A stretch of 64,000 nucleotides of DNA. Source: Betaproteobacteria bacterium (GTDB lineage Bacteria > Pseudomonadota > Gammaproteobacteria > Burkholderiales > Casimicrobiaceae). The notes beneath the pieces are model-generated. The model had not been told where the DNA came from. It was given only the letters and a program-made list of their open reading frames with translations, and made no database searches. Of the stretch, positions 45,690 through 45,980 are shown one piece after another. How positions within the stretch are numbered: position 1 is the stretch's first letter; each line of letters opens with the position of its first letter. The stretch is taken from NCBI GenBank assembly GCA_013298765.1, contig JAAFJA010000007.1:1-64000 (forward strand), read 5' to 3'. The translations under genes and the position numbers were made by a program.

Positions 45690-45980
45690 CCTAACGCTCG
45701 GCGGAAGCGAACTCGGTAAGACGCTGTTGTGGCGAGGGCGCAGTACATCGTGCGCCGATGCTGAAACTCGATTGATCTCGGCATGGAAGGTTCCCGCGAA
45801 GCGATTTGCTTACCCCGTGGGTGTCGTGAACGGCTTTCTGCGCCGTTCCGAGCACAGCAAAGCCACTTCCAGTAAATACCGCGATCCAGATCTCGTGCAG
45901 CGAAACTTAGAAACGCCGTTCGCGACTGTACTCGAAAGCACGTCGATCGAAAAAATCGCGGACCTCAGCATCGGCTGACA
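45690..45980 (+). pseudogene. decayed fragment of a ppc paralogue/duplicate (PEP carboxylase C-terminal region)
   Basis: Its translation PVGVVNGFLRRSEHSKATSSKYRDPDLVQRNLETPFATVLESTS...IEKIADLSIG aligns to Ppc residues [44 protein letters not shown]...IKEIAELNIG. The nucleotide sequences are clearly homologous at about 70% identity. The fragment is truncated and has internal deletions. Confidence 0.65.

What the first reader, a model, noticed from the sequence alone, without database searches (positions are those of the whole stretch)
45690..45980. Decayed ppc fragment about 2.5 kb downstream of the intact ppc, separated from it by the DUF11/IPTL-CTERM gene
Seen in sequence. Translating 45690-45980 gives recognisable PEP-carboxylase C-terminal segments (VNGFLR...SSKY.DP.L.QRNLET...VLEST...I..IA.L.IG). 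Nucleotide identity to ppc positions about 42270-42560 is roughly 70%. Inference. This is either the remnant of a second ppc copy, or evidence that the DUF11 surface-protein gene, with its own terminator, inserted next to ppc with partial duplication.
Basis: seen in the sequence. Interest (0 to 1): 0.55.

Follow-up and report, generated by a model that had tools for sequence, protein, structure and literature searches.

The report
Leftover ppc gene end beside insertion
A dead 170-base leftover of the PEP-carboxylase gene lies next to purK, where the end of that gene normally sits, pushed there when a surface-protein gene cassette was recombined in; it is an ordinary pseudogene scar that records how the insertion happened.

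Summary
Window 45797/45808-45976 is homologous to ppc codons ~631-680 and 729-739 (blastn E=1e-10, tblastn E=1e-11, clade nucleotide profile E=2e-26). It lies in the ppc frame and has a 144-nt in-frame deletion at a short repeat.

The fragment is a non-functional remnant. It has lost 14 of 32 conserved Ppc columns (TEQGE is now SEHSK), and no protein family matches the ORF.

Comparative data explain it. In relatives without an insertion (L165, L166, L169), ppc and purK converge with a 109-129 nt spacer. The 116 nt after the fragment's TGA are homologous to that spacer, so the fragment sits where the native ppc 3' end belongs.

An independent contig (L170) carries the same spacer, DUF11 gene and terminator after ppc. 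It too is followed by a 5'-truncated ppc copy, but with a different junction.

The fragment is not a decayed copy of the resident allele: 33 of 56 third positions differ, against about 15 expected (P<1/3000).

Best reading: recombinational insertion of the cassette (single crossover or homology-facilitated illegitimate recombination) displaced or duplicated the ppc 3' part. This is a known kind of event, of low to moderate interest.

The parts
40378..43119 (+). Intact ppc (PEP carboxylase). It is 913 aa from the ATG at 40378; the longest ORF starts at a GTG at 40351.
   Evidence: Pfam PEPcase full length, E=7e-301. Identical to database protein P0001, 913 aa. It is a recombination patchwork relative to close relatives.
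43120..43410 (+). 291-nt spacer, the left part of the inserted cassette. It is not homologous to the ancestral ppc-purK spacer.
   Evidence: 88% identical to L170 149-438. No similarity to the L166 spacer (local alignment P=0.14).
43411..45537 (+). DUF11-repeat surface-protein gene (708 aa), the cargo of the cassette.
   Evidence: Pfam DUF11 E=6e-33 and Flg_new_2; TIGR01451 repeats. The only near-full-length homolog is P0142 in L170. Against L170, dN/dS is about 0.2-0.3.
45614..45647 (+). Intrinsic-terminator hairpin with a U-run. This is the last element shared between the window and L170.
   Evidence: Fold -27.7 kcal/mol, z=-4.8, 0 of 200 shuffles as stable. 45609-45644 is 86% identical to L170 2249-2285.
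45646..45796 (.). 151-nt filler of unknown origin between the terminator and the ppc remnant.
   Evidence: No match in any fetched locus or elsewhere in the window. No Rfam hit. Not significantly ppc-like. Unrelated to the 46 nt that follow the terminator in L170 (22% identity).
45797..45942 (+). ppc remnant, block 1. It corresponds to Ppc codons ~631/636-680 (window 42243/42256-42390) and is in frame.
   Evidence: blastn E=1e-10 and tblastn E=1e-11; nhmmer E=2e-26; alignment. The conserved TEQGE motif is replaced by SEHSK.
45933..45941 (+). Junction of the 144-nt in-frame deletion: CGAAAGCAC, matching the imperfect direct repeat GGAAAGCAC (42381-42389) / CGAGAGCAC (42525-42533) in intact ppc.
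   Evidence: The two alignment registers overlap on these 9 nt.
45943..45978 (+). ppc remnant, block 2 (codons 729-739, SIEKIADLSIG), followed by TGA. Ppc aa 740-922 are missing.
   Evidence: blastn 77% over 44 nt, E=3e-5; nhmmer E=7e-6. The TGA lines up with the native ppc stop when the spacers are aligned. The exact endpoint is uncertain by about 20 nt.
45979..46094 (.). Native ppc-purK intergenic spacer (116 nt) with a conserved hairpin CGCCC-N8-GGGCG at 46002-46019.
   Evidence: Global alignment to the 117-nt L166 spacer scores 12, against -15.8 +/- 5.4 for shuffles (0 of 2000 reach it). The same hairpin appears in the L166 fold.
46095..47255 (-). purK, convergent with ppc. It is the native right-hand neighbour of ppc in this lineage.
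   Evidence: Pfam ATP-grasp/PurK_C. ppc-purK adjacency in L165, L166 and L169.

Best explanation
The fragment is a dead, decaying piece of the 3' third of a ppc gene. It was left at the native ppc position when a 2.5-kb cassette (291-nt spacer, DUF11 surface-protein gene, terminator) was recombined in between ppc and purK.

Inferred mechanism. Incoming DNA from a related Casimicrobium-type strain carried a ppc 3' end followed by the cassette. It recombined with the resident ppc through that homology. This could have happened in two ways: a single crossover with a circularised fragment, or homologous recombination at the ppc end plus an illegitimate join at about ppc codon 631. Either route gives the same product: one intact ppc, then the cassette, then a 5'-truncated second copy of the ppc 3' part still attached to the native spacer and purK.

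The truncated copy has no start, no promoter and no catalytic core. It then accumulated about 0.2 substitutions per site and lost two internal stretches by deletion between short imperfect repeats (codons 681-728 and about 740-922).

What is shown: the homology, the anatomy, the loss of conserved residues, the native position, the absence of the insertion in relatives, and the same architecture in L170. What is inferred: the recombination route, and whether the remnant is of native or donor origin.
For: - Homology and anatomy.
- Non-functionality. The fragment retains only 18 of 32 columns that are >=90% conserved in 80 Ppc sequences, whereas the resident Ppc retains 28. The 56-aa stretch is invariant in all Ppc >=75% identical, so the ~20 replacements are the fragment's own. 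Differences at codon positions 1+2 are a constant 20-21 against all 8 clade genes. No homolog of the 101-aa ORF was found in 5.8 billion or 1.84 billion proteins.
- Native position. The 116-nt spacer after the fragment is homologous to the L166 ppc-purK spacer, with 0 of 2000 shuffles reaching the score.
- Ancestral state. ppc and purK are directly convergent in L165, L166 and L169. The site is a hotspot: LtrA insert in L162/L163, a gamma-glutamyltranspeptidase gene in L167, chrBA in L168.
- Link to the cassette. L170 has the ppc end, the same spacer, a DUF11 homolog and the same terminator, then a ppc copy starting abruptly at codon ~782. Other insertions at the hotspot carry no ppc remnant.
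- Two different alleles. Third-position differences to the resident copy are 33 of 56, against 15.4 +/- 3.4 expected for duplication plus neutral decay (P<1/3000). The fragment leans towards L169 rather than the resident allele (18 vs 8 sites, p=0.04).
- Recombination is rife here. ppc is a mosaic. The L162 purK 3' end has been replaced. The cassette 5' half is younger (dS 0.12) than the flanking ppc end (dS 0.53).
- Experimental precedent. Single crossover with a circular molecule carrying a gene end duplicated 109-950 bp of that gene end around the insert (PMC3240628). HFIR-type displacement leaves orphaned 3' ends (PMC5361080).
Against: - The sequence after the terminator differs completely between the window (151-nt filler) and L170 (46 nt; 22% identity). 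The two genomes therefore cannot share one junction. Two events, or a secondary rearrangement, must be assumed.
- The downstream copy in L170 is not decayed (11 of 11 differences at third positions). That fits a recent event, but it could also reflect gene conversion or an assembly path through a repeat. The contig ends after 96 nt of it.
- No crossover point can be assigned in the intact ppc because the gene is mosaic everywhere.
- The fragment is not specially close to the ppc of the genomes whose right flank is closest to the window. L162 differs at 28 of 56 third positions, so 'native allele' is not demonstrated.
- No genome with the presumed donor arrangement (cassette without duplication) was found.
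- All distance estimates rest on 56 codons.
Confidence: 0.68

Rival explanations
1. Remnant of a complete second ppc gene. A tandem paralog or a horizontally acquired xenolog once lay between the DUF11 gene and purK, was functional for a long time, and was then destroyed by large deletions.
For: Divergence from the resident allele is mostly synonymous (differences at codon positions 1/2/3 are 11/8/33; pS 0.70, pN 0.18). That is what a once-selected second gene would show. Deletions between short repeats are documented inside the fragment, so more could have removed the 5' 630 codons.
Against: No relative has two ppc genes at this locus. L165, L166 and L169 have a single ppc abutting purK. In L170 the downstream copy begins abruptly at codon ~782, right after the terminator and a 46-nt filler, while still undecayed. 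That is a truncated copy from the outset. The synonymous divergence is explained equally well by two alleles from different strains.
Confidence: 0.14
2. Plain local duplication. The resident ppc 3' part was copied in cis when the cassette inserted, and the copy simply decayed. Later homologous recombination replaced the corresponding part of the intact gene with another allele, which inflated the synonymous distance.
For: ppc is demonstrably a recombination mosaic. Window-L162 identity jumps at about codon 730, and window-L167 identity ranges from 0.98 to 0.74 along the gene. Allele replacement after duplication is therefore plausible.
Against: Without that extra assumption the model is rejected: 33 third-position differences observed against 15.4 +/- 3.4 expected (P<1/3000). 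The fragment is no closer to the resident allele than to any of 7 other clade alleles. No known cis mechanism places a foreign gene between the two copies without recombination involving external DNA.
Confidence: 0.12
3. The stretch is functional: a small protein (the 101-aa ORF 45673-45978) or a regulatory RNA derived from ppc.
For: The ORF is open across the whole remnant. The 144-nt deletion is in frame. A gene caller called a product here on an independent contig (L081).
Against: No homolog was found in two very large protein searches. There is no Pfam family and no Rfam family. Replacements hit the most conserved Ppc residues. The stretch lies behind a strong terminator, and it is absent from all relatives. 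An open frame of this length is not unusual at this G+C content and decay level (own estimate, inference).
Confidence: 0.02
4. Chance similarity or an assembly artefact.
For: None beyond the short length. The whole-database phmmer search was not significant.
Against: E=1e-10 to 2e-26 in local searches. The two blocks are collinear and in frame. An independent Logan contig (L081) reproduces purK, the spacer and the fragment at 100% identity.
Confidence: 0.01

Closest known systems
Insertion-duplication by single crossover (Campbell-type integration) of a circular DNA carrying a gene end (shown for lacZ in E. coli conjugation, PMC3240628)
   Same: The product architecture is the same: an intact gene, then foreign DNA, then a 5'-truncated second copy of the same gene end in direct orientation. 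The duplications observed there were 109-950 bp. Here the duplicated part would originally have been about 870 nt in the window (codons 631-922) and about 420 nt in L170.
   Different: This is a natural event inferred from sequence, not observed. No plasmid backbone or replication gene is present. The two copies come from diverged alleles. The truncated copy has since lost most of its length.
Homology-facilitated illegitimate recombination and '3'-end / C-terminal displacement' (Acinetobacter, S. pneumoniae and P. stutzeri transformation; Rhs and T6SS effector-immunity arrays; PMC5361080 and references therein)
   Same: One homologous anchor (the conserved part of a gene) brings in a new 3' end plus cargo. 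The old 3' end is shifted downstream and survives as an orphan remnant. The locus is a hotspot with different cargo in different strains.
   Different: ppc is a housekeeping enzyme gene, not a polymorphic toxin. The new and old 3' ends encode the same sequence, so nothing is diversified. There is no immunity gene and no array of several orphans. The illegitimate junction shows no clear microhomology that I could establish.
Ordinary bacterial pseudogene remnant (gene fragment decaying by point substitution and deletion bias)
   Same: Conserved catalytic residues are lost, deletions lie between short direct repeats, and there is no start or promoter. Decay is about 0.2 substitutions per site.
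   Different: The functional copy sits 2.7 kb away on the same strand, and the remnant's position and flanks allow the event that created it to be reconstructed.
Integrative elements that target the 3' end of a gene and restore it with their own copy (attL/attR duplication)
   Same: A gene 3' end is duplicated on both sides of inserted DNA. The intact gene keeps a functional end that may come from the incoming DNA.
   Different: No integrase or recombinase is present anywhere in the cassette. The repeats are hundreds of nt long with different left boundaries in two genomes, not a fixed short att core.

Membership tests
Phosphoenolpyruvate carboxylase (Pfam PF00311 / NCBIfam NF000584), functional member | Near-full-length match to the ~900-residue profile, above the curated cut-off | tested here: not met
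   Pfam gives no hit for the 101-aa ORF. NCBIfam scores 15.3 bits against a cut-off of 815, covering profile positions 615-663 only.
Phosphoenolpyruvate carboxylase (Pfam PF00311 / NCBIfam NF000584), functional member | Conserved residues of the covered segment (R-x-TEQGE, SKY, NLE and others; columns >=90% conserved in 80 Ppc) | tested here: not met
   18 of 32 conserved columns are retained, against 28 of 32 in the resident Ppc. TEQGE reads SEHSK.
Phosphoenolpyruvate carboxylase-derived pseudogene fragment | Significant, collinear, same-frame nucleotide and protein homology to ppc without a complete reading frame | tested here: met
   Only codons ~631-680 and 729-739 are present.
Phosphoenolpyruvate carboxylase-derived pseudogene fragment | Relaxed selection on its own branch | tested here: met
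   All ~20 amino-acid differences are unique to the fragment, in a stretch that is invariant across the clade. Position 1+2 differences are constant against all relatives.
Insertion-duplication / 3'-end displacement by recombination (single crossover or HFIR) | Intact gene, foreign DNA, and a 5'-truncated direct copy of the same gene end, with the truncated copy joined to the native downstream flank | tested here: met
   Gene order. The spacer after the fragment is homologous to the ancestral ppc-purK spacer. Uninterrupted ppc-purK in L165, L166 and L169.
Insertion-duplication / 3'-end displacement by recombination (single crossover or HFIR) | Recurrence of the architecture with the same cargo in an independent genome | tested here: met
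   L170 has the ppc end, the same spacer, a DUF11 homolog, the same terminator, and a ppc copy from codon ~782. The contig ends after 96 nt of that copy, so its 3' continuation is unseen.
Insertion-duplication / 3'-end displacement by recombination (single crossover or HFIR) | The two copies derive from different alleles (donor and recipient) | tested here: met
   Simulation rejects same-allele origin. The fragment is equidistant from 8 clade alleles. Later allele replacement in the intact copy cannot be excluded.
Insertion-duplication / 3'-end displacement by recombination (single crossover or HFIR) | Identifiable homologous crossover in the intact gene, and microhomology at the illegitimate joint | tested here: inconclusive
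   ppc is mosaic throughout. An 18-nt resemblance at the left junction (repeat D10) did not survive a chained significance test.
Site-specific integrative element (integrase plus att duplication of a gene 3' end) | Tyrosine or serine recombinase gene within the inserted DNA | tested here: not met
   Only the DUF11 gene gives any Pfam hit. No family was found for any other ORF on either strand.
Site-specific integrative element (integrase plus att duplication of a gene 3' end) | Identical short att core at both ends, at the same position in different genomes | tested here: not met
   No bounding direct repeat was found. The truncated copies start at codon ~631 in the window and ~782 in L170.
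Rhs / T6SS-type C-terminal displacement arrays | Polymorphic toxin gene with a variable 3' tip and a cognate immunity gene | tested here: not met
   The gene is ppc. The displaced and current ends encode the same conserved peptide, and there is no immunity-like ORF.
Known non-coding RNA family | Match to an Rfam covariance model | tested here: not met
   No match at E<=1 in 43100-46150 on either strand.

The most novel reading that the evidence does not exclude
The DUF11 surface-protein cassette may spread among Casimicrobium-type strains as a recombinase-free passenger that uses the conserved ppc 3' end as its homology arm. Each acquisition would displace the recipient's ppc 3' end and leave a truncated ppc copy with a new junction. 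The window would hold an old, decayed scar and L170 a fresh one. That would be Rhs-style '3'-end displacement' acting on a housekeeping gene at a recombination hotspot, datable from the decay of the scars.
Probability: 0.3. Interest if true: 0.4.

Novelty: new member of a known kind. Interest (0 to 1): 0.24.

Why it matters
The fragment has no function of its own. It is useful as a record. It marks the native end of ppc, and it shows that the DUF11 surface-protein gene is a lineage-specific insertion into a ppc-purK hotspot that holds different cargo in different strains. Together with L170, it suggests that such cargo is acquired by homologous or illegitimate recombination using a housekeeping gene as the anchor, without any mobile-element machinery. 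For annotation, the 101-aa ORF should be marked as a ppc pseudogene fragment and not as a hypothetical protein. Casimicrobium is a core activated-sludge genus (PMC13515534, abstract listed; read only as abstract). For its population genomics, the interval is a convenient marker of recombination and surface-protein turnover.

Tried and rejected
- The word-indexed protein search with the 101-aa ORF found nothing. The single exhaustive phmmer job also found nothing at whole-library significance. Both were uninformative about a donor; they show only that the ORF belongs to no family.
- The genome-contig scan with Ppc gave 80 loci. The best was only 79% identical and had no synteny, so it was useless for the interval.
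- The metagenome scan with PurK gave relatives at <=76%, with unrelated genes downstream of purK.
- Idea: the 151-nt filler is a decayed copy of ppc codons 780-820, as the L170 structure predicts. Two collinear weak matches were found (P about 0.06 each). The chained test was not significant (P=0.10 against the L170-based composite, 0.82 against whole ppc). Not claimed.
- Idea: the window's purK 3' end was imported with the fragment. Rejected. The window-L166 identity is uniform along purK, and the replaced purK end belongs to L162.
- Idea: one shared insertion in the window and L170 followed by a simple deletion. Rejected. The post-terminator sequences are unrelated and the decay states differ.
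- Assigning the crossover point or donor lineage from allele similarity failed, because ppc is mosaic and only 56 codons are available.
- P0035 (a 619-aa Ppc) turned out to be a frameshifted ppc in another context and is unrelated.
- My first inference, from dN/dS of about 0.1, was that the fragment must come from a distant foreign gene. It had to be softened once calibration showed that synonymous sites are near saturation even among 95%-identical Ppc genes (dS 0.76-1.14).

Full report
**Layout**

The region holds, in order:
- an M56 peptidase gene (38765-39943, +);
- a full-length ppc (40351/40378-43119, +; Pfam PEPcase E=7e-301);
- a 708-aa DUF11-repeat protein gene (43411-45537, +);
- a strong terminator hairpin (45614-45647; -27.7 kcal/mol, z=-4.8);
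- the stretch in question;
- the convergent purK (46095-47255, -), then purE and slt.

Database relatives of the Ppc are labelled Casimicrobium / Casimicrobiaceae (Burkholderiales).

Yes.
- blastn of 45540-46095 against ppc gives two collinear matches: 45820-45941 ~ 42268-42389 (69.7% over 122 nt, E=1e-10) and 45933-45976 ~ 42525-42568 (77% over 44 nt, E=3e-5).
- tblastn with Ppc against the whole window finds, apart from ppc itself, only 45808-45942 (aa 636-680, 64%, E=1e-11).
- A nucleotide profile built from eight clade ppc genes finds 45797-45943 at E=2e-26 and the second block at E=7e-6.
- The NCBIfam PEPC model also picks it up weakly.
- An independent Logan contig (L081) reproduces purK, the spacer and the fragment at 100% identity, so this is not a local misassembly.

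45690-45796 shows no significant ppc similarity in any frame.

**Anatomy**

- Block 1 is in the ppc reading frame and corresponds to codons ~631/636-680.
- Block 2 corresponds to codons 729-739. The 144 nt (48 codons) between the blocks are missing.
- The two alignment registers overlap on CGAAAGCAC (45933-45941). This matches an imperfect direct repeat in intact ppc, GGAAAGCAC / CGAGAGCAC, each encoding E-S-T. It looks like a deletion between short repeats.
- Block 2 ends in ...SIG followed by TGA. Ppc aa 740-922 are absent.
- The corresponding sites in intact ppc (AATATCGGCT, encoding NIG, and AATACGGGGT, encoding NTG before the stop) are again an imperfect repeat. This second junction is only located to within about 20 nt.

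**It is dead**

- In 80 Ppc sequences, 32 of the 56 aligned columns are >=90% conserved. The resident Ppc keeps 28 of them and the fragment keeps 18. TEQGE has become SEHSK.
- Across all database Ppc >=75% identical to the resident one, this 56-residue stretch is essentially invariant. The fragment's ~20 replacements are therefore its own.
- Consistently, differences at codon positions 1+2 are a constant 20-21 against each of eight clade genes. This corresponds to about 0.2 substitutions per site of unconstrained decay.
- The 101-aa ORF that spans the fragment has no Pfam family and no homolog in either large protein search.
- No Rfam family matches the area.
- No other ORF on either strand of the insertion has a Pfam match; in particular there is no recombinase.

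**What relatives show**

A graded series of Ppc relatives (96-87% identity) gave genomic contexts.
- In L166 (95%), L165 (87%) and L169 (87%), ppc and purK are directly convergent, with spacers of 117, 109 and 129 nt and nothing in between.
- L162/L163 (94%) carry a different 2.7-kb insert (an unknown ORF, LtrA, another unknown ORF) at the same place.
- L167 (96%) has a gamma-glutamyltranspeptidase gene after ppc.
- L168 (88%) has chrBA after ppc.

The ppc 3' flank is therefore a hotspot, and the DUF11 gene plus fragment is a lineage-specific state. More distant genomes were not informative.

**The fragment sits at the native ppc position**

The 116 nt between the fragment's TGA and the purK stop align with the 117-nt ppc-purK spacer of L166. 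The global score is 12, against -15.8 +/- 5.4 for shuffles, with 0 of 2000 reaching it. The alignment includes a conserved hairpin CGCCC-N8-GGGCG. By contrast, the 291 nt after the intact ppc show no similarity to that spacer. So the remnant, not the intact gene, is the one still joined to the ancestral downstream flank.

**A second genome with the same cassette**

The only near-full-length homolog of the DUF11 protein, apart from the window's own, is P0142. It lies on L170, a 2.4-kb Logan contig recovered in 8 samples.

L170 contains, in order:
- ppc codons 875-922;
- the same 291-nt spacer (88% identical);
- the DUF11 homolog, which lacks one 128-aa repeat;
- the same terminator;
- 46 nt unrelated to the window's filler;
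- a ppc segment in the same orientation that starts abruptly at codon ~782 and runs off the contig.

Its 11 differences from the window's ppc over 96 nt are all at third codon positions, so that copy is not decayed. Other insertions at the hotspot carry no ppc remnant. 'Cassette followed by a 5'-truncated ppc copy' is therefore a property of this cassette. The junctions and ages differ between the two genomes.

**Not a decayed copy of the resident allele**

- Against the resident ppc, the fragment differs at 11, 8 and 33 sites at codon positions 1, 2 and 3 (pS 0.70, pN 0.18).
- I simulated duplication of the resident sequence followed by neutral decay of one copy and purifying selection on the other. 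With the decay level fitted to positions 1+2, this predicts 15.4 +/- 3.4 third-position differences. None of 3000 runs reached 33.
- The fragment is equally far (68.5-75% nt) from the ppc genes of eight clade genomes. It is nominally closest to L169 (22 third-position differences; sign test against the resident allele 18 vs 8, p=0.04).
- Calibration is important here. Synonymous sites are strongly diverged even between 95%-identical Ppc genes (whole-gene dS 0.76-1.14, omega 0.04-0.08). The fragment's parent allele therefore need only have been that of another strain or species of the same genus, not a distant gene.

**Mechanism (inference)**

Two well-documented routes give exactly this product.
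1. A single crossover between the chromosome and a circular DNA carrying a gene end plus foreign DNA duplicates that gene end around the insert. In E. coli, 109-950 bp of the lacZ end were duplicated this way (PMC3240628).
2. In homology-facilitated illegitimate recombination, a homologous anchor in the conserved gene brings in a new 3' end plus cargo, and an illegitimate join further downstream leaves the old 3' end as an orphan. This has been proposed for T6SS effector-immunity arrays and for Rhs 'C-terminal displacement' (PMC5361080).

Both routes predict what is seen: an intact ppc, the cassette, a truncated ppc copy attached to the native spacer, and two copies stemming from different alleles.

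The abundant recombination seen here fits such a route:
- ppc is a mosaic, with window-L167 identity ranging from 0.98 to 0.74 along the gene and a jump in window-L162 identity at about codon 730.
- The purK 3' end is replaced next to the L162 insert.
- The cassette 5' half (dS 0.12) coalesces more recently than the adjacent ppc end (dS 0.53).

I could not locate the crossover. I could not establish microhomology at the left junction. I could not decide whether the remnant is native or donor DNA.

**Open points**

- The 151-nt filler (45646-45796) matches nothing. A tempting reading, that it is decayed ppc codons 780-820, failed a chained significance test.
- The L170 contig stops 96 nt into the downstream copy, so its continuation to the native spacer and purK is a prediction, not an observation.
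- A full-length second ppc stage cannot be formally excluded. Neither can later allele replacement in the intact copy. Both are listed as rival explanations.

**Verdict**

This is a genuine ppc pseudogene remnant, correctly spotted. It is best explained as the displaced or duplicated 3' part of ppc, left by recombinational insertion of a surface-protein cassette into a ppc-purK hotspot. This is a known kind of event in a new place. It is useful for annotation and for reconstructing the history of the locus, and of low to moderate general interest.

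Noticed in passing
window 43258-43280 and 43491-43513; L170 287-309 and 519-541: A 23-nt inverted repeat (91% complementary, arms 210 nt apart) brackets the upstream region, start codon and signal-peptide codons of the DUF11 surface-protein gene. Both arms are conserved in L170. The geometry resembles an invertible (phase-variable) promoter segment or a long-range 5' structure, but no invertase gene was seen nearby.
   Followed up: partly
window 43947-44246 and 44331-44630; L170 gene 439-2181: The DUF11 gene contains a 384-nt internal tandem repeat (73% identity). 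The L170 homolog lacks exactly one 128-aa repeat unit, so the repeat number varies between strains.
   Followed up: partly
window 40378-43119 compared with L162, L166, L167, L164, L165, L169: ppc is a recombination patchwork among Casimicrobium-type genomes. Window-L167 nucleotide identity runs from 0.98 (codons 10-100) down to 0.74. Window-L162 identity jumps from about 0.8 to 0.91-0.96 from codon ~730 to the stop.
   Followed up: partly
L162 15448-15700 (purK 3' end), next to its LtrA insertion at 12743-15447: The last ~180-250 nt of purK in L162/L163 are only 63-78% identical to the window and to L166, while the rest of purK/purE is 93-98% identical to the window. This is a recombination footprint of that genome's own insertion at the same hotspot.
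   Followed up: partly
ppc 3' flank in L167 (2893-4485), L168 (9760-12035), L171 (12322-13418): The ppc 3' flank holds different genes in close relatives: gamma-glutamyltranspeptidase, chrB-chrA, or unknown ORFs in place of purK. The ppc-purK linkage has therefore been broken repeatedly within the genus.
   Followed up: no
L171 9546-12279: ppc is called as two overlapping ORFs (619 and 312 aa) in this JGI contig. This is either a frameshift pseudogene or a sequencing error.
   Followed up: no
window 43120-44327 versus 44331-45543 and 42973-43116, compared with L170: Between the window and L170, the cassette's spacer and the first 300 codons of the DUF11 gene are much less diverged (dS 0.12; spacer 88% identical) than the flanking ppc end (dS 0.53) or the last 250 codons of the DUF11 gene (dS 0.54). 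This suggests a recent exchange of part of the cassette.
   Followed up: partly
window 45448-45537 (C-terminus of the DUF11 protein): The C-terminus VPSLPVGWVIALALLLIAAGVIVQRAKRT looks like an IPTL-CTERM sorting signal by eye, and the top database relative is named that way. However, the NCBIfam scan returned only DUF11 repeats at E<=0.01.
   Followed up: partly
window 37151-38329 versus L165, L169, L162: The DUF4143/AAA_14 ATPase gene upstream of ppc is present in the window, L166 and (at its contig edge) L167. It is absent between the M56 peptidase gene and ppc in L165 and L169 and absent from L162, so the 5' flank of ppc is variable too.
   Followed up: no
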